NCBI GenBank assembly: GCA_004195635.1 | Contig: PSPT01000003.1 | Location: 38,146 to 102,145, forward strand | DNA from: Methanobacteriota archaeon | GTDB taxonomy: Archaea > Thermoplasmatota > Poseidoniia > Poseidoniales > Poseidoniaceae | Direction of reading: 5' to 3' | DNA length: 64,000 nucleotides | In this document: piece by piece, positions 41,588 to 56,412 of the stretch | Layout: each line of letters starts with the position of its first letter | How positions within the stretch are numbered: position 1 is the first letter of the stretch | Translations under genes and position numbers: made by a program | Notes under the pieces: generated by a model | The model's input: only the letters and a program-made list of their open reading frames with translations | What the model was told of the DNA's origin: nothing | Databases searched by the model: none

Positions 41588-43150
41588 TCAGTTCTCCCGA
41601 GGGACATAGTACAGTTCAACACTACCTGTTCCCAAAGAGATTGGCTGACCAACAATGATGTTTTCTGCAACACCAGTTAAGCGATCACGCTCTCCTACAA
41701 TTCCTGCTCTTAGCAAGTGATTAACAGTAACTTCGAAAGCAGCACGGGCAAGAATACTGTGCTTTGTTCCAGACACACCGTGGCGGCCGATTGCTCGGAC
41801 TGCACCTTCGCTGGTCATTACATCAGCGACCATCAACAAGTGGCGGTCATCAACTTCCAAACGGGCTCCTTCAAGCGTCAACTTCAATTCATTTACTATT
41901 GCTTGACGAGCGGCTTCAATACCCAAGAAATCATAAATTTCCATGATATTATTTGTATATGTACGGCTTCGGTCAATTCCATCCATGTCAGAAACGCGGG
42001 TGAGATTACTTCCTATAGTAGAGAGATAATACTCACCTGTTTCATCATCAAGTTGAACATTGGCTCGTTGAATACTTGGGACGCCTTTTAATCGCAGGTC
42101 CTTTACCTTGTCTTCAAGTTGGAGCAATTCTGTATAAGAAGGGATTACATCTTTATCAGATTCAGTTTGTCGTCCTGGAACGATTGTCAATACCTTTGGA
42201 TTGCTTTCCTTATCTGCTTCGATGTAAAGGCGGAGGGCACGACCTAACTTGTCACGGACTTCGTCAGCAGTCATATTTCTCTGCTTCAGATTTCCCTTGT
42301 GCAGGTTCAAAACCAAACGGCGTTGTGCTACGTCGGTATTTAAGTCGGCAATATTCTTTGTAAGAGTTACTTCAAGTGCTGCTGCCATTTTCTTGGCTTC
42401 AAGTGCATTCTTTGAATCATCTTCAGATCTCTTTGAATCATCCAAATAAATTGTCATTGTTGGAGTCTGTGGTATCTTTCGAGCATCAACAACTTCGATA
42501 ATACGAGGCAAACCTTGAGTCACGTTAACTGTCGCAACACCCGCATAGTGGAAAGTACGCATAGTCATCTGAGTACCGGGTTCTCCAATTGATTGTGCTG
42601 TAAGAATTCCTGCTGCTTCGTGCGGGTCAATACGTGCGCGAGCAAAAGCAACTCGGGCTTGCTCAATGATAGATTCAGCCTGCTTCTTGGTAATCTTGAC
42701 CTTGTCTCTAGCAATAACTGCCTTTGTTAGGTCTGATAGAACTCGCTCGGTTAACATTGGGCTACCGGTGGCTTCATCAGCCTTTTCAAGGGCATTGAAA
42801 ATGGGGTTTTCAACAAATTCATGCAAATTTCCAATCATCTTTCGCTCATAGTCATAGGACTCCAACTCCTGCTCCACCTTAGGGCGAACAGTTCGTCGCT
42901 TTCGTCGGCGAACGACAGTAAGATTTCCTCCATCAATTGAACTTGAACGGGCAGACTTGGTTGCATTAACAATAATTTGATGCACCTTTGCAGCAGTTTC
43001 GCTATCTGTTTCGCAGATTTTTGCGATTTCCTGAGCAGTAAGAACTTTTACATTATCCCACTTTCTGTCATCTGCAAGAAGATGAGCAAATTCTTCAGGT
43101 ACAAGCATATCCATTAGTTTCTTCTTGGTTGCACTCTTTACTACCATCAA
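41588..43150 (-). CDS. rpoA2: DNA-directed RNA polymerase subunit A'' with an extra N-terminal domain of about 120 aa
   Basis: Conserved A'' core [28 protein letters not shown], and so on to the C-terminus. The core starts at about residue 185 instead of about 60. The N-terminal extension is paralogous to the N-terminus of the RpoH gene product (see findings). Confidence 0.95.
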
Positions 43151-49940: not shown

Positions 49941-50564
49941 TTAATTTGTTCCCTCTACGATAAGGCGGTAAGCCACTGAAGTGCCTGCAGAAGGGCTCTT
50001 GCGAATCACTCGCAAAACTCGGTCGGCTAACCATCCAGCAGGGAGTGGGGTGTGCCCCTCATCTTCCAGCGATTTTGCCATGTCTTCCTTTTCGGCTATT
50101 TCTTTGATCACTTGAATGACGGGGTCGGTCATTAGGATCTTTGGGAGTAATTCTTTTCGCAGGCGATGCTCGCCTGTTTCCTCATCTATTTCACCGAGGT
50201 TCCATGGTGCTAGTGCATCTTCTTCCTCTTCCTCAGGAACCAATTCTTGATGAGGGACGATTACGTGATTAAGAACATTAAACTTGGTAAGCCCCATTGG
50301 GAAGTCATCAATGTCAACTGCGCGCGCATTGATAGTAATTTTCTTGGATGCCTTTTTACGGCGGTTAGTGGTAAGTTCACGAATAACATTCATGATGTTT
50401 GCAAAGCGGTCATCTTCTTTGCTCATTCCAACGGCTTTTGCGACCTCGTCAATTGACATCTGCTTGATATCAGCCATGTTTCGATCAGTAGCGAGTTTGT
50501 GAGCGTGTTCCTCAGCAATCCCCATTTCTTGCAGTCGCTTTTTTGTTGCGCTCTTTACCACCAT
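49941..50564 (-). CDS. rpoH: DNA-directed RNA polymerase subunit H (Rpb5-like) with N-terminal extension of about 100 aa and an internal insertion
   Basis: C-terminal region FNVLNHVIVPHQELVPEEE...LPKILMTDPVIQ...RVLRVIRKSPSAGTSVAYRLIV matches RpoH/Rpb5 (HxLVPxH and ...R.S.tAG..v.YR). Typical RpoH is about 80 aa; this ORF is 207 aa. Confidence 0.9.
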   Translation of the reverse strand: MVVKSATKKRLQEMGIAEEHAHKLATDRNMADIKQMSIDEVAKAVGMSKEDDRFANIMNVIRELTTNRRKKASKKITINARAVDIDDFPMGLTKFNVLNHVIVPHQELVPEEEEEDALAPWNLGEIDEETGEHRLRKELLPKILMTDPVIQVIKEIAEKEDMAKSLEDEGHTPLPAGWLADRVLRVIRKSPSAGTSVAYRLIVEGTN

Positions 50565-50615
50565 TTTGCTAACCCCAATACCCTTCTCGTCACCGGCCTG
50601 TATCCCAGCCAGAAG

Positions 50616-50689
50616 CGGGCCTGACGGGGTTCGAACCCGCGACTAACCGGTTAAAAGCCGGTTGCTCCACCTGGCTGAGCTACAGGCCC
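50616..50689 (-). tRNA. tRNA-Lys (anticodon UUU)
   Basis: Minus-strand GGGCCTGTAGCTCAGCCAGGTGGAGCAACCGGCTTTTAACCGGTTAGTCGCGGGTTCGAACCCCGTCAGGCCCG. Anticodon loop CUUUUAA (UUU), T-loop TTCGAAC. It lies 51 bp upstream of rpoH on the same strand. Confidence 0.9.
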
Positions 50690-50878: not shown

Positions 50879-52381
50879 ATGGTTAGACATAGTCTTTTCA
50901 CAAACTCAGAGGTTGAACGAGAAAGAGAAATCTTGCAATCTAGGGGTAGGAAAGTCATCTGGTTGACACCCGATAATCAGGAAATAGAGGCTCAAATACC
51001 CCCCACGACCTACCCCCCGAGAAAGGACACCTCAATGCTCGCCGAAGCGATTTTTTCTTTGGGTGAAGGAAGGGGGCGAAAAATGCTTGAAATCGGTTGT
51101 GGAAGTGGAGTAATAGGCACTTGGGCAAATCAAAGAAATTGGCGATGTTCGGCTTGTGATATTAACCCGTATTCTGTAGCCGCAACTAGGGCATTATTCA
51201 GCAACTACGGATTCCCTCCAGAAATGGTCCGAGAAGGAGGGCCAGGTGAAGGAGCGAACTCTGCTTGGGCTGGAGATGAAAATTACGACCTTATCGTCTG
51301 GAATTTACCTTATATGAGTCCACCCCAAAATGCCACGGAATTACTTGGACCTCTCGAAGAATCAGCATTGCTTGACCTTGAAAAGGACGGCACTGATTCG
51401 CTATTGCTCAACTCACTCCAAACTATTGAACCTAACTCAGCAAGCATTTCGCACACTAAAACCCAGCACCCAACCGCAGCAGATGCCCTCAACATCTCAG
51501 CCTCTGCACAAACCCAGCAAACCTCATTCAAGGGAAGTCGATTGCTTGCAAAAGGTGGCTTGATATTATTAGTTCACTCATCAAATGAAAACGGACGAAG
51601 AATATCTGGGAAATGGGCCAAAAAGGGTTGGGCGAGTAAAATCATTCATTCAACTTCTTTTGCAGATGGAGAAGAATTGTTTGTTTTGGCTCTTTGGCGG
51701 GCTTTTTCTGAGGCCCGAGTAGAACGCGTTGATTCAATTGATTCTACCAATCGCTACTTACTGGAAAAGGGTGGTCGACTCGGAAGCAGGATCTGTGCAA
51801 TCCAGCAAACGGAAGGCCGCGGCATGTCAAACAATAAGTGGGATACAAGAGATGGAAGTTTTGCTTGCTCTTGGGTTTTACATGATGGAATGCAAACTCA
51901 ATTCAAACCTGGGCAGGCGCAATTGCTCGCAGGCCTAGCCACTCTAAAGGCAATAAACTTCCTTACCGATGACACAGGCGGTACAAAAAAAGAGGGCGTT
52001 TTCAAAGGAATTGAAATATTCCAAAAATGGCCGAATGACATTTGGTCAAAACACGGAAAGGTAGCAGGAATTCTCATTGAAGGGCGCTCGGATGGGACAA
52101 AGCAAACTATCGTCTTAGGAATCGGCGTCAACCTATGCGAAATAGCAAGCGGCCCCTCATCTGCATACTCCAAGCAAAATACTGCGCATGAACACAAATA
52201 CCCTCATGATTCTTTGCAAAATATGCCACCCTCGCCAGTTATTTTGAAAATCCCCCACTGCAAATTCTACCCACAGAAAAGGAAAATATTATCCCACAAA
52301 CCGACATTAGTTTCATCGCTGAAAAAGCACAGATTTTTTCCAACATTACACACTACTTGCACCATCACTCTAAACCTATGA
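50879..52381 (+). CDS. Fusion protein: N-terminal HemK/PrmC-like SAM-dependent methyltransferase domain plus C-terminal biotin--protein ligase (BirA-like, BPL_LplA_LipB) catalytic domain
   Basis: N-terminal half: LEIGCGSGVIG (SAM motif I) and YDLIVWNLPYM ([ND]PPY-type motif IV). C-terminal half: VDSIDSTNRYL, QTEGRGMSNNKW (degenerate GRGRxGRxW) and KWPNDIWSKHGKVAGILIEG (the KWPND...GK.aGIL.E BirA signature). Single uninterrupted 500-aa ORF. Confidence 0.7.
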   Translation: MVRHSLFTNSEVEREREILQSRGRKVIWLTPDNQEIEAQIPPTTYPPRKDTSMLAEAIFSLGEGRGRKMLEIGCGSGVIGTWANQRNWRCSACDINPYSVAATRALFSNYGFPPEMVREGGPGEGANSAWAGDENYDLIVWNLPYMSPPQNATELLGPLEESALLDLEKDGTDSLLLNSLQTIEPNSASISHTKTQHPTAADALNISASAQTQQTSFKGSRLLAKGGLILLVHSSNENGRRISGKWAKKGWASKIIHSTSFADGEELFVLALWRAFSEARVERVDSIDSTNRYLLEKGGRLGSRICAIQQTEGRGMSNNKWDTRDGSFACSWVLHDGMQTQFKPGQAQLLAGLATLKAINFLTDDTGGTKKEGVFKGIEIFQKWPNDIWSKHGKVAGILIEGRSDGTKQTIVLGIGVNLCEIASGPSSAYSKQNTAHEHKYPHDSLQNMPPSPVILKIPHCKFYPQKRKILSHKPTLVSSLKKHRFFPTLHTTCTITLNL

Positions 52382-52605
52382 TTAACGGTGTAGTAGTCAA
52401 ACCAACAGACATCAATTCCGATGGAGAGTTAGTAGTTACTCACAAAGGAGAGAGCATCTCAATAGACTCGCCATCTCAACTTACTTGGCCACACAAAAGC
52501 CAACCCTAAACTCGTGATGTTTAACCAACTCATTCTCATTCAGACAATGCTCACTTCAGCAAGTAGCATCGATCATTATTGATTGCTAATAAACCTGAAA
52601 ATGAA

Positions 52606-55476: not shown

Positions 55477-56412
55477 TCAAGATGGTAAGCCAGCACCACT
55501 AATCACTGCAACTACTCTTATTTTTCCTTCCAATTCGGATGTTGTTCTGGCTCCGAGGATTACTTGAGCATCCCTGTGTAATCCCGAAGTAAAAGCACTT
55601 GCTACGGCTTCAAGTTGCTGAATAGTCATGCCAATTCCACCTTCAACTTGAATCAAGCAACCTCTCGCTCCTTGTATTTGCACATCGTAAAGTGGTGCTC
55701 GCACAGCATTTTGGAAAATCAACATTGGAGAATCGGGGTCGCCTTCAGCTACAAGCAATGTAGAACGGCCGTCTTTTTGAACGATAGAACGAAGGTCCAT
55801 GAGGTCCAAATTGATGAGCCCTATCTTTGAAATTGTCGTTACCAAGCCTTCGACTAATTCTTCGATCCATGCTGCCCCTAAACGCCAATCTACGCCTCTT
55901 TCACGTGCCTGCCATGCCAACCGGTCCAATGATAGTCGCACACAAACGTCTGAGTATTTCTCCAGTTTTACGCAGGCTTCCTCGGCAACTTGTCGCCGAG
56001 AAGGTTGTGCATCAAAAGGCAAAGCAGCGATAGATAGCACAAGTGCGCCGCGGCGCTTTGCTTGCCGGGCCATGTCGGGCGCAGCGCCACTTCCGGAACC
56101 GCCCCCAAGAGCGGTCAAAAGAATTACCAATTCAACCGGTTCGAGAACTCGGTTAACAAATTGAGTCAAATTACGCATACGTTGTTCACCAAGTTCGGGT
56201 AAAGAAGCACAACCAGAAGAATCGGGACTATCACCCAAAGTAAGCACATGAGCCTGCGTAGGTGAATCAACTCCACTAGGGTCAGCGTCAATCAGTAGCA
56301 AATCAACATTTGTACCACAACGTGTTTTGGCCCGATTGGCCCACGTACACCCCAATCCTCCGACACCAACAAGGAGCAGAGAAGCGTCTTTCATAGGGTG
56401 GACCTCAAACAC
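55477..56412 (-). CDS. Divergent FtsZ/tubulin-superfamily GTPase (short, 311 aa, FtsZ-like paralogue)
   Basis: Tubulin/FtsZ signature GGGSGSGAAP (T4), LSIAALPFDAQP (matching VTKPFsFEG), NLDLMDLRSI (T7 N.D..D) and a G1-like LLLVGVGGLGCTWANR segment. No long C-terminal tail. Confidence 0.75.
   Translation of the reverse strand: MFEVHPMKDASLLLVGVGGLGCTWANRAKTRCGTNVDLLLIDADPSGVDSPTQAHVLTLGDSPDSSGCASLPELGEQRMRNLTQFVNRVLEPVELVILLTALGGGSGSGAAPDMARQAKRRGALVLSIAALPFDAQPSRRQVAEEACVKLEKYSDVCVRLSLDRLAWQARERGVDWRLGAAWIEELVEGLVTTISKIGLINLDLMDLRSIVQKDGRSTLLVAEGDPDSPMLIFQNAVRAPLYDVQIQGARGCLIQVEGGIGMTIQQLEAVASAFTSGLHRDAQVILGARTTSELEGKIRVVAVISGAGLPS

What the first reader, a model, noticed from the sequence alone, without database searches (positions are those of the whole stretch)
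50879..52381. Single ORF fusing a HemK-like methyltransferase domain to a biotin-protein-ligase catalytic domain
Residues 60-150 or so have class-I SAM MTase motifs, including an NLPY ([ND]PPY-type) catalytic motif typical of N-methyltransferases acting on Gln/Lys/adenine. The C-terminal 230 residues have the BirA catalytic-domain signatures (DSTN, QTEGRG..KW, KWPNDIW...GKVAGILIEG). I am not aware of a described MTase-BPL fusion. It could couple protein (or tRNA/rRNA) methylation with biotin/lipoate attachment. Alternatively the BPL domain may be a degenerate ligand-sensing module: GRGMSNNKW deviates from GRGRxGRxW.
Basis: partly seen in the sequence, partly recalled or inferred. Interest (0 to 1): 0.6.

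Follow-up and report, generated by a model that had tools for sequence, protein, structure and literature searches.

The report
Methyltransferase–biotin ligase fusion of marine archaea
The ORF is a real single gene, found throughout Marine Group II archaea (Poseidoniales), that joins a release-factor-type protein methyltransferase to a biotin-attaching enzyme; nobody has characterised it, and the copy in this window is broken near its end by a 46-base deletion.

Summary
ORF 50879-52381 encodes an N-terminal class-I SAM methyltransferase and a C-terminal biotin protein ligase (BPL) catalytic domain in one frame.

Three corrections:
1. The 3' end is an artefact. Four intact sequences from independent assemblies of the same clade show that the window lacks 46 bp at 52222/52223. 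The last 52 residues of the ORF are therefore out of frame. The BPL C-terminal domain lies in the shifted frame up to 52509.
2. The fusion is not a one-off. It is a syntenic single-copy gene in at least 343 species genomes; the 80 best hits are Poseidoniales or unclassified marine euryarchaeal MAGs. It always diverges from tRNA-Lys–rpoH–rpoB. IMG already annotates it as a ligase/methylase.
3. The odd GRGMSNNKW loop belongs only to the window's small clade. Most of the family keeps GRG/GHG-RRGRxW, KWPND and GxGxN, so the "degenerate sensor" idea is not supported family-wide.

By profile and by predicted fold, the methyltransferase half is a divergent HemK2/Mtq2 (N6AMT1-like) enzyme with an invariant N-x-P-Y motif. 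The ligase half is a class-I BPL (TM 0.81 to Aquifex BPL).

The most likely function is a bifunctional housekeeping enzyme, methylating aRF1 or another protein and biotinylating a carboxylase carrier domain. Functional coupling between the halves remains untested.

This is a new variant of known kinds, of moderate interest.

The parts
50879..52509 (+). Whole gene as reconstructed: MTase, BPL catalytic domain and BPL C-terminal domain, interrupted in this window by a 46-bp deletion and frameshift at 52222/52223
   Evidence: ORF; three-frame translation; intact orthologues P0001/P0002; DNA alignments
50879..51703 (+). HemK2/Mtq2-like class-I SAM methyltransferase domain (residues 1-275), with an N-terminal helix and beta-hairpin extension (residues about 9-40)
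   Evidence: Pfam MTS. Profile against PDB: N6AMT1 E 5e-14, end to end. AF2 model pLDDT 84.5. In Foldseek the top 9 hits are all N6AMT1/HemK2, TMt 0.68-0.76. Scores 126 bits against an HMM of stand-alone HemK2-like proteins
51008..51031 (+). Motif X, TYPPRKDT (family consensus TVYPPREDT; HemK2 has VYEPAEDT)
51086..51112 (+). Motif I, the SAM-binding loop LEIGCGSGV
   Evidence: E71, G73, G75 and G77 are invariant
51296..51313 (+). Motif IV, VWNLPY: an N-x-P-Y variant of the NPPY catalytic motif
   Evidence: WNLPY in 113 of 120 family clusters, NPPY in 2. W141, N142, P144 and Y145 are invariant. Stand-alone relatives also vary at position 2 (NAPY, NQPF and others)
51428..51538 (+). Clade-specific low-complexity insertion in the MTase domain (residues 184-220), predicted disordered
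   Evidence: Alignment gap in all other family members; pLDDT below 50
51692..51751 (+). Domain junction, LWRAF-SEARVERV-DSIDSTN: the last MTase strand runs into the first BPL strand with a linker of about 6 residues
   Evidence: W273 invariant and P275 nearly invariant; DSSP strands 266-274 and 281-287 and full-length pTM 0.86
51704..52222 (+). BPL catalytic domain (residues 276-448), in frame with the MTase
   Evidence: PF03099 51.6 bits; TIGR00121 62.6 bits, below its cutoff; profile against PDB E 3e-27 to Aquifex BPL; Foldseek TMt 0.81 to 3efs
51803..51841 (+). Biotin-binding loop QQTEGRGMSNNKW. It deviates from GRGRxGRxW; the two Arg after GRG are replaced by Met and Ser, and a further Arg by Asn
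   Evidence: this loop occurs in only 2 of 120 clusters, whereas most of the family has GRG/GHG-RRGRxW-type loops
52025..52084 (+). KWPNDIW (catalytic-Lys motif) and GKVAGILIEG strand
   Evidence: P385, N386, D387, K394 and G397 are invariant; KWPND in 104 of 120 clusters
52118..52132 (+). GIGVN (GxGxN nucleotide-binding motif)
   Evidence: G414, G416 and N418 are invariant
52222..52223 (+). Site of the 46-bp deletion relative to the intact alleles (ATTTTCACTAAATCCGTATCCAGGAAAGAACTTGAACGAACTCTAA is missing); only 2 nt (AT) of microhomology
   Evidence: the junction sequence occurs in no JGI metagenome contig, while an intact allele was found
52223..52381 (+). Out-of-frame tail of the annotated ORF (residues 449-500, MPPSPVILK...TLNL*); not a real protein sequence of the family
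52225..52509 (+). BPL C-terminal domain (helical linker plus small beta domain), encoded in the shifted frame; identical at the nucleotide level to the intact allele L002
   Evidence: 0 differences in 93 codons; beta strands 523-544 in the P0002 model; Foldseek alignments of 278 columns cover whole class-I BPLs; no Pfam BPL_C hit on its own

Best explanation
The gene encodes a bifunctional protein that arose once, at or near the base of Poseidoniales (Marine Group II archaea), and has been inherited vertically.

N-terminal half. This is a divergent HemK2/Mtq2-type SAM-dependent protein N-methyltransferase. It keeps motif X, motif I, DINP and an N-x-P-Y catalytic motif. By homology, its most likely target is the glutamine of the GGQ motif of release factor aRF1; a protein lysine or glutamine elsewhere is possible.

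C-terminal half. This is a class-I biotin protein ligase. It makes biotinyl-5'-AMP and transfers biotin to the carrier-domain lysine of a biotin-dependent carboxylase. That fits an organism reported to be a biotin auxotroph.

Relationship between the halves. They are joined by a very short, conserved junction and are predicted to pack rigidly. I infer that each still performs its own housekeeping reaction.

The copy in this window. A 46-bp deletion at 52222/52223 puts the BPL C-terminal domain out of frame. This copy is either a very recent loss-of-function allele of the ligase half or an assembly artefact.

Shown here: domain identities, motif conservation, order-wide distribution, synteny, purifying selection and the deletion.
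Inferred only: the substrates, and the independence of the two activities.
For: Domain identities:
- Pfam hits both domains above their gathering scores.
- All 67 aligned homologues hit birA_ligase, PRK14968 and hemK_rel_arch.
- Family profile against PDB: class-I BPLs at E 1e-27 to 1e-23; N6AMT1/HemK2 at E 1e-13 over the whole MTase domain, ahead of PrmC (about 1e-7 with the full-length profile, 8e-10 with the MTase-only profile) and PrmA (about 5e-7 to 8e-7).
- AF2 models: pLDDT 83-84, pTM 0.86 for the full length.
- Foldseek: the BPL half matches 3efs with TMt 0.81. For the MTase half, the top 9 hits are all N6AMT1/HemK2, followed by PrmC and E. cuniculi Mtq2.
- The nearest non-fused relatives are proteins of about 200 aa; 9 of 10 tested pass the TIGR00537 HemK2/MTQ2 cutoff. 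The window protein scores 126 bits against their HMM.

Motif conservation:
- Catalytic motifs are conserved across 120 clusters.

Distribution and context:
- Encoded relatives were found in at least 343 GTDB species genomes. The 80 best are labelled Poseidoniales or unclassified marine euryarchaeal MAGs, plus one SAG labelled Deltaproteobacteria that carries archaeal rpoH/rpoB.
- 81 of 84 loci show both motif sets in one ORF. The other 3 have ORFs of 496-547 aa.
- rpoH lies divergently upstream in 70 of 70 loci with room to see it. tRNA-Lys lies in between in 21 of 21 loci checked.

Selection:
- dN/dS within the clade is 0.15 (MTase), 0.26 (BPL) and 0.26 (C-terminal domain).

Biology:
- MGII archaea are regarded as unable to make biotin (PMC10160649, citing Iverson 2012).

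The deletion.
Against: - No substrate was examined. No BCCP-like ORF lies in the 64-kb window.
- The window protein scores below the NCBIfam equivalog cutoffs for both HemK2/MTQ2 (32 vs 87 bits; PRK14968.1-3 48 vs 162) and birA_ligase (62.6 vs 83.1). Both halves are therefore divergent.
- The MTase domain is a sharply separated clade. That would also fit a change of substrate.
- The rigid predicted packing and the invariant junction hint at more than a casual fusion.
- The window clade lacks the Arg residues of the biotin-binding loop. In addition, 15 of 120 family clusters have R, H or Q in place of the KWPND lysine.
Confidence: 0.6

Rival explanations
1. The fusion is functionally coupled, in one of two ways.
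(a) One domain is an obligate structural or allosteric partner of the other. For example, the BPL domain could replace Trm112 as the stabiliser and activator of the Mtq2-like MTase. Alternatively, the MTase domain could take the place of the N-terminal domain that supports ligase activity in class-II BirA and make it SAM-responsive.
(b) The MTase could methylate the biotin-dependent carboxylase, its carrier domain, or the ligase itself.
For: - The junction is very short and conserved (W273 invariant, P275 nearly invariant).
- The full-length pTM of 0.86 implies a confidently fixed inter-domain orientation.
- The fusion has been kept as a single ORF in every locus examined across a whole order.
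- Eukaryotic and haloarchaeal Mtq2 need Trm112, while some archaeal orders lack Trm112 altogether (PMC6144793).
- The MTase clade is sharply separated from stand-alone HemK2 proteins.
Against: - There is no direct evidence of any kind.
- BPL and HemK-family enzymes are both known to fuse with unrelated partners: BirA/CoaX (NF009862), PrmC/TrmB (NF002421) and PycA-BPL (PMC11237513).
- I could not inspect model coordinates or PAE to see which MTase surface the BPL covers.
Confidence: 0.2
2. The MTase half is a neofunctionalised paralogue rather than the aRF1 GGQ methyltransferase. It would target another protein Gln or Lys, such as a ribosomal protein, or a small molecule. A separate canonical Mtq2 would exist elsewhere in the genome.
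For: - It scores below the TIGR00537 and PRK14968 cutoffs.
- NLPY replaces NPPY in 113 of 120 clusters.
- The family has its own EGGP motif and an N-terminal helix-hairpin extension.
- There is a large score gap to stand-alone HemK2 proteins.
- The human homologue N6AMT1 is also deposited as the lysine methyltransferase KMT9 (PDB titles).
- PGAP names some members 'L11 methyltransferase'.
Against: - The best profile and fold matches are HemK2/Mtq2 over the whole domain. PrmA matches cover only the SAM-binding part and are much weaker.
- Stand-alone HemK2-like relatives also vary at position 2 of N-x-P-[YF].
- No other HemK-like ORF lies in the window. That covers only 64 kb.
Confidence: 0.2
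3. This is the first reader's alternative: the BPL half is a catalytically dead, ligand-sensing module.
For: - In the window clade the biotin-binding loop is GRGMSNNKW, which lacks the conserved arginines.
- In this window the C-terminal domain is also out of frame.
- The BPL half has a higher dN/dS than the MTase half (0.26 vs 0.15).
Against: - Family-wide, the loop is mostly canonical, and the PND, GK and GxGxN motifs are invariant.
- The window clade's BPL half is no more diverged from the family than average (37.7% vs a mean of 37.3%).
- A dN/dS of 0.26 is still purifying selection.
- The fold is that of active class-I BPLs, including the C-terminal domain.
Confidence: 0.07
4. The 46-bp deletion is an assembly or sequencing artefact, and the gene is intact in the living organism. 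The competing reading is that it is a real, very recent disrupting allele.
For: - Four intact sequences from independent assemblies of the same clade exist (L001/L005, L002, L087).
- No JGI metagenome contig contains the deletion junction.
- The out-of-frame C-terminal coding sequence shows zero decay relative to L002.
Against: - A clean 46-bp loss is not a typical base-calling error.
- Over the roughly 8 kb that could be aligned to L005, all other indels are 1 or 3 nt, and the long ORFs across the window are intact. The assembly is therefore not generally indel-prone.
- De Bruijn assemblers need reads that span the junction.
- The clade is rare in the collection: only one intact hit was found. 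Absence of the junction there is weak evidence.
Confidence: 0.4

Closest known systems
Class-I (monofunctional) biotin protein ligases, e.g. Aquifex aeolicus BPL (PDB 3efs/2eay) and Pyrococcus horikoshii BPL (1wnl)
   Same: - Same catalytic fold plus small C-terminal domain (TMt 0.75-0.81; profile E 1e-27 to 1e-24).
- Family-wide it keeps GRGRxGRxW-type loops, KWPND and GxGxN.
- It has no DNA-binding domain.
   Different: - It carries a methyltransferase domain of about 275 residues fused directly to its N-terminus.
- The window clade has GRGMSNNKW.
- The window protein falls below the TIGR00121 cutoff (62.6 vs 83.1 bits).
- The linker between the catalytic and C-terminal domains is longer and poorly conserved.
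HemK2/Mtq2/N6AMT1 (KMT9) release-factor N5-glutamine methyltransferases; archaeal PRK14968/TIGR00537 proteins
   Same: - End-to-end domain match.
- Best fold matches.
- Motif X (V)Y-P-x-x-D-T, GxGxG, DINP and N-x-P-Y are all present.
   Different: - NLPY replaces NPPY, and the family has its own EGGP motif.
- It has an N-terminal extension of about 40 residues.
- It scores below the family cutoffs.
- It is fused to a BPL rather than being a free protein of about 200 aa that, in eukaryotes and Haloferax, pairs with Trm112 (PMC6144793).
Other BPL fusions: class-II BirA (wHTH repressor + BPL), BirA/type III pantothenate kinase (NF009862), PycA-BPL of Methanocella (PMC11237513)
   Same: A BPL catalytic core joined to a second functional module in one polypeptide; in BirA the extra module is also N-terminal.
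   Different: - The partner here is a protein methyltransferase. It is not a DNA-binding domain, a CoA-pathway kinase or a biotin-dependent enzyme.
- No metabolic link between the two partners is known.
Bifunctional PrmC/TrmB (NF002421): a HemK-family MTase fused to another enzyme
   Same: It is a precedent for a HemK-family release-factor methyltransferase existing as part of a bifunctional fusion (listed).
   Different: There the partner is another translation-related methyltransferase, and the fusion is bacterial.

Membership tests
Biotin protein ligase (BPL_LplA_LipB, PF03099; birA_ligase, TIGR00121) | BPL/LplA catalytic fold recognised by the family profile | tested here: met
   PF03099 scores 51.6 bits against a cutoff of 21. 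Foldseek TMt 0.81 to Aquifex BPL. PDB profile E 3e-27.
Biotin protein ligase (BPL_LplA_LipB, PF03099; birA_ligase, TIGR00121) | Score above the NCBIfam TIGR00121 equivalog-domain cutoff (83.1 bits) | tested here: not met
   The window protein scores 62.6 bits and P0002 scores 65.2 bits. The best family member reaches E 1.3e-29.
Biotin protein ligase (BPL_LplA_LipB, PF03099; birA_ligase, TIGR00121) | Biotin-binding loop GRGRxGRxW | tested here: not met
   The window has GRGMSNNKW. Most of the 120 family clusters do have GRG/GHG-RRGRxW-type loops. The feature therefore fails in the window clade only.
Biotin protein ligase (BPL_LplA_LipB, PF03099; birA_ligase, TIGR00121) | Catalytic lysine motif KWPND and the GxGxN motif | tested here: met
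   KWPNDIW at residues 383-389 and GIGVN at 414-418. P385, N386, D387, G414, G416 and N418 are invariant.
Biotin protein ligase (BPL_LplA_LipB, PF03099; birA_ligase, TIGR00121) | C-terminal small beta domain in frame with the catalytic domain | tested here: not met
   It is present and in frame in P0001, P0002 and other family members. In the window it is displaced to another frame by the 46-bp deletion.
Biotin protein ligase (BPL_LplA_LipB, PF03099; birA_ligase, TIGR00121) | Biotinylates a BCCP or biotinyl domain encoded in the same genome | not testable with these tools
   No BCCP-like ORF lies in the 64-kb window.
HemK2/Mtq2 release-factor glutamine methyltransferase (TIGR00537, PRK14968) | Class-I MTase fold with motif X (VYxPxEDT/S), motif I (GxGxG) and DINP, matching HemK2 end to end | tested here: met
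   TYPPRKDT, LEIGCGSGV and CDINP are present. The profile aligns to residues 10-200 of 203 in N6AMT1, E 5e-14. The Foldseek top 9 hits are all N6AMT1.
HemK2/Mtq2 release-factor glutamine methyltransferase (TIGR00537, PRK14968) | NPPY catalytic tetrapeptide | tested here: inconclusive
   The window has NLPY. N, P and Y are invariant in the family but position 2 is Leu. Stand-alone HemK2-like relatives also show NAPY, NQPF and NVPF.
HemK2/Mtq2 release-factor glutamine methyltransferase (TIGR00537, PRK14968) | Score above the NCBIfam cutoffs (TIGR00537: 87 bits; PRK14968.1-3: 162 bits) | tested here: not met
   The window protein scores 32.1 and 48.2 bits. The best family E-values are 8.8e-21 and 1.3e-25.
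HemK2/Mtq2 release-factor glutamine methyltransferase (TIGR00537, PRK14968) | Methylates Gln of the aRF1/eRF1 GGQ motif; often works with Trm112 | not testable with these tools
   There are no biochemical data, and the presence of Trm112 or a second Mtq2 in Poseidoniales genomes could not be checked.
Class-II bifunctional BirA (repressor/ligase) | N-terminal winged helix-turn-helix DNA-binding domain | tested here: not met
   The N-terminal 275 residues are a methyltransferase. BirA models match only from about profile position 75 onward.
PrmA ribosomal protein L11 methyltransferase (the PGAP name given to some members) | Full-length match including the N-terminal L11-binding domain | tested here: not met
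   Matches cover only the SAM-binding segment: PDB 1ufk residues 104-178, E 8e-7. NCBIfam prmA gives E 0.0078 for the window protein.
BioC malonyl-ACP O-methyltransferase (considered because of the biotin link) | Match to TIGR02072 BioC; no N-x-P-Y N-methyltransferase motif | tested here: not met
   BioC is not among the best 25 NCBIfam families for the window protein or for the 67 homologues. The N-x-P-Y motif is present.

The most novel reading that the evidence does not exclude
The two halves could form an obligate functional unit peculiar to Marine Group II archaea.

One version: the BPL domain acts as a built-in Trm112 substitute that activates the Mtq2-like MTase, or conversely the MTase domain acts as a SAM-responsive N-terminal regulatory domain of the ligase. 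This would link translation-factor or protein methylation to biotin status in one of the ocean's most abundant archaeal groups.

A bolder version: the MTase methylates the biotin-dependent carboxylase or its carrier domain.

The evidence does not exclude either version. The junction is invariant, the predicted packing is rigid, the fusion is retained order-wide, and the MTase clade is sharply separated from free HemK2 proteins. Nothing tests either version directly.
Probability: 0.17. Interest if true: 0.65.

Novelty: new variant of a known kind. Interest (0 to 1): 0.4.

Why it matters

An order-wide, vertically inherited fusion of an Mtq2-type methyltransferase with the biotin ligase matters in four ways:
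- It is a clean lineage marker.
- It corrects misleading automatic names such as 'L11 methyltransferase' and 'hypothetical protein'.
- It gives a natural test case for two questions: whether Mtq2-type enzymes can dispense with Trm112, and what an N-terminal domain does for a BPL.
- If the halves turn out to be coupled, it would be a new regulatory link between SAM-dependent protein methylation and vitamin (biotin) use in biotin-auxotrophic plankton.

The window's own copy also shows that a plausible-looking ORF end can hide a 46-bp deletion.

Tried and rejected
- Misassembly or gene-caller fusion of two genes. Rejected: 81 of 84 independent loci carry both motif sets in one ORF, the other 3 have ORFs of 496-547 aa, and the junction is conserved.
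- Programmed frameshift at 52222. Rejected: the orthologues are simply in frame and carry 46 extra nucleotides.
- BioC-like methyltransferase, which would be a biotin-synthesis link. Rejected: no BioC signal, and an N-x-P-Y N-methyltransferase motif is present.
- PrmA, the PGAP name. Rejected: the match is partial and weak.
- Accelerated decay of the BPL half in the window clade. Not seen; dN/dS is 0.26.
- BCCP or a second HemK-like gene in the window. None found.
- Literature searches for a described MTase-BPL fusion and for Poseidoniales biotin enzymes. Nothing specific turned up. The archaeal fusion survey PMC11237513 mentions only PycA-BPL.
- Scan for the deletion junction in JGI metagenomes: 0 hits. 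The intact-allele pattern gave 1 hit. The clade is rare there, so this is weakly informative.
- Context of the nearest stand-alone HemK2 protein, P0210. It lies in an unrelated archaeal genome next to SpoU and L10e, which does not help for Poseidoniales.
Full report
**The observation**

The ORF 50879..52381 (+) exists: ATG start, 500 aa. Pfam places an MTS-type class-I methyltransferase at residues 61-183 (PF05175, 29.8 bits, cutoff 23). It places a BPL_LplA_LipB domain at residues 287-418 (PF03099, 51.6 bits, cutoff 21), in the same frame. NCBIfam agrees, although below its equivalog cutoffs: birA_ligase 62.6 bits (cutoff 83.1), archaeal HemK-like PRK14968.1-3 48.2 bits (cutoff 162), PrmC and hemK_rel_arch.

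**The 3' end of the ORF is wrong**

After about residue 448 the translation turns into low-quality sequence. A neighbouring frame reads a typical BPL C-terminal region up to 52509. The near-identical proteins P0001 and P0002 (555 aa) read ...HDSLQNIFTKSVSRKELERTLNATLASYFENPP... through this point.

DNA alignment shows that the window lacks 46 nt between 52222 and 52223. This holds relative to L002 (99.2% nt identity), L001/L005 (about 91%) and L087. The deletion has only 2 nt of microhomology.

Over the roughly 8 kb of the window that could be aligned to L005, every other indel is 1 or 3 nt.

The displaced C-terminal coding sequence has zero differences from L002 over 93 codons. The event is therefore either very recent or an artefact.

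No JGI metagenome contig contains the junction. One further intact allele was found. I cannot decide between a real allele and an artefact without reads.

**The fusion is real and widespread**

A homology search with the repaired protein returned at least 187 clusters of 420-555 aa. Most carry both Pfam domains on record. Several carry the IMG name 'biotin-(acetyl-CoA carboxylase) ligase/methylase of polypeptide subunit release factors'.

The 80 best are Poseidoniaceae, Thalassarchaeaceae, Poseidoniales or unclassified marine euryarchaeal MAGs, including the original MG-II genome CM001443.1. One hit is a SAG labelled Deltaproteobacteria that nevertheless carries archaeal rpoH and rpoB.

In 81 of 84 loci both motif sets lie in one ORF. 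The remaining three have ORFs of 496-547 aa that simply miss my regular expression.

The gene sits in a fixed place. It is divergent from rpoH-rpoB-rpoA'-rpoA'' in 70 of 70 loci with room to see it. A tRNA-Lys(UUU) lies in between in 21 of 21 loci checked. This is a vertically inherited core gene of the order.

**The ligase half**

- The family profile matches Aquifex and Pyrococcus class-I BPLs and E. coli BirA at E 1e-27 to 1e-23.
- An AlphaFold model of P0002 (pLDDT 83, pTM 0.86) superposes on Aquifex BPL with TMt 0.81 and on PhBPL with about 0.78. These alignments include the C-terminal domain.
- S289, T290, Q310, G313, G315, W321, P385, N386, D387, K394, G397, G414, G416 and N418 are invariant in 67 sequences.
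- Across 120 clusters the biotin-binding loop is mostly GRG/GHG-RRGRxW, and KWPND occurs in 104. R, H or Q replaces the lysine in 15.
- GRGMSNNKW occurs only in the window's small clade.
- That clade's BPL half is no more diverged from the family than average.
- It evolves under purifying selection, with dN/dS 0.26.

The 'degenerate sensor' idea is therefore not supported family-wide. The missing arginines may lower biotinyl-AMP affinity in this clade. That inference rests on what is known of the equivalent arginines in BirA and PhBPL; I did not test it.

**The methyltransferase half**

- A profile of the N-terminal domain aligns end to end with human N6AMT1/HemK2 (E 5e-14). It does so from motif X (VYEPAEDT against TVYPPREDT) through GxGxG, DINP and NPPY to the last two strands.
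- This is ahead of PrmC (8e-10) and PrmA (8e-7, SAM-binding part only).
- A model of window residues 1-278 (pLDDT 84.5) has N6AMT1/HemK2 as its nine best PDB neighbours (TMt 0.68-0.76). E. coli PrmC and E. cuniculi Mtq2 follow.
- An exhaustive phmmer search of 1.84 billion representatives found only 88 proteins at E <= 1e-10. Most are fusions of 430-560 aa, and the shorter ones are probably fragments.
- Below that comes a separate tier of proteins of about 200 aa. Nine of ten tested pass the HemK2/MTQ2 cutoff.
- The window protein scores 126 bits against an HMM of 38 such proteins. These proteins themselves vary at position 2 of N-x-P-[YF].

The domain is therefore a divergent, well-separated offshoot of HemK2/Mtq2. 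N142, P144 and Y145 are invariant, and Leu occupies position 2 in 113 of 120 clusters.

The domain also has:
- a family-specific EGGP motif;
- an N-terminal helix-hairpin extension;
- in the window clade only, a disordered insertion of 37 residues (51428-51538).

**How it most likely works**

Both halves keep their catalytic residues under purifying selection. Within the clade, dN/dS is 0.15 for the MTase and 0.26 for the BPL, against 0.02-0.07 for the neighbouring genes.

The simplest reading is a bifunctional housekeeping enzyme with two activities:
- an Mtq2-type protein N-methyltransferase, whose most probable target by homology is the GGQ glutamine of aRF1;
- a class-I BPL that charges the carrier domain of a biotin-dependent carboxylase.

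The host group is regarded as unable to make biotin (PMC10160649).

The substrates are inferred, not shown.

Some features hint at more than a casual fusion. The linker is only about six residues, W273 at the boundary is invariant and P275 nearly so, and the full-length pTM is high. Mtq2 needs Trm112 in eukaryotes and Haloferax, whereas some archaeal orders lack Trm112 (PMC6144793). The BPL domain could therefore be a built-in stabiliser, or the MTase could act as an N-terminal regulatory domain of the ligase. I give this coupled reading about 0.2.

**What I could not test**

I could not check whether Poseidoniales genomes carry a separate Mtq2, Trm112, a second BPL or a BCCP. The 64-kb window holds no BCCP-like or second HemK-like ORF. 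The literature searches found no description of the fusion and no statement on Poseidoniales biotin enzymes.

**Comparison with known systems and verdict**

The ligase works like, and folds like, a class-I BPL. The MTase works like, and folds like, HemK2/Mtq2. Neither half of the window protein reaches the curated equivalog thresholds. The window copy also fails two BPL features: the arginine loop and the in-frame C-terminal domain.

Precedents exist for each partner being fused to something else:
- class-II BirA;
- BirA/CoaX (NF009862);
- PycA-BPL in Methanocella (PMC11237513);
- PrmC/TrmB (NF002421).

I found no precedent for this particular pairing. It is best filed as a new variant of known kinds. 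It is present in databases but uncharacterised, and is of moderate interest (0.4). The interest would rise if the domains prove to be functionally coupled.

Noticed in passing
window 50615-50689 (-); also L003-L084 at the equivalent position: A tRNA-Lys(UUU) gene lies between rpoH and the fusion gene. It is conserved at that position in 21 of 21 Poseidoniales loci checked, so the conserved block is fusion gene, then tRNA-Lys–rpoH–rpoB–rpoA'–rpoA'' on the opposite strand.
   Followed up: partly
window 49941-50564 (-) and 41588-43147 (-): The RpoH-like protein (207 aa; the Rpb5_C domain covers only residues 95-202) and RpoA'' (519 aa) both begin with a homologous extension of about 43 residues, MVVKSATKK[RK]L... 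(53% identity, E 4e-10). It has no Pfam match. The same N-terminal module is therefore duplicated on two RNA polymerase subunits.
   Followed up: partly
window 51428-51538 (+): A 37-residue low-complexity insertion (EPNSASISHTKTQHPTAADALNISASAQTQQTSFKGS) sits inside the MTase domain. It is found only in the window clade (window, P0001, P0002, L087) and is predicted disordered.
   Followed up: partly
L018 (JAOMAZ010000008.1): This single-cell genome contig is labelled 'Deltaproteobacteria bacterium AH-558-G13'. It nevertheless carries archaeal rpoH and rpoB (73-81% identity to the window) and the fusion gene. The record is probably mislabelled or contaminated.
   Followed up: no
P0064, P0117 (NCBI records); P0011, P0062, P0079: Public annotations of family members are inconsistent. 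PGAP calls some '50S ribosomal protein L11 methyltransferase' and others 'hypothetical protein'. IMG uses 'biotin ligase/methylase of release factors' or 'release factor glutamine methyltransferase'. The PrmA name is not supported by the profile or fold evidence.
   Followed up: yes
family clusters P0013, P0024, P0060 and others: 15 of 120 family clusters replace the lysine of KWPND with R (10), H (4) or Q (1), and one has KPPND. By analogy with BirA and PhBPL this lysine is considered catalytic, so BPL activity may be altered in some Poseidoniales lineages.
   Followed up: no
window 50879-52509 compared with 49941-50564 and 55477-56394: Between the window and its close relative L005, the fusion gene evolves much faster than its neighbours. 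Its protein identity is about 90%, against 99.5% for RpoH and 97% for FtsZ. Its dN/dS is 0.21, against 0.016 and 0.07.
   Followed up: partly
P0194 (2494 aa): A 2494-residue protein in the representative library carries a HemK-like segment (residues 1318-1450, 29% identity, E 2e-10) that matches the window MTase domain. It was not examined.
   Followed up: no
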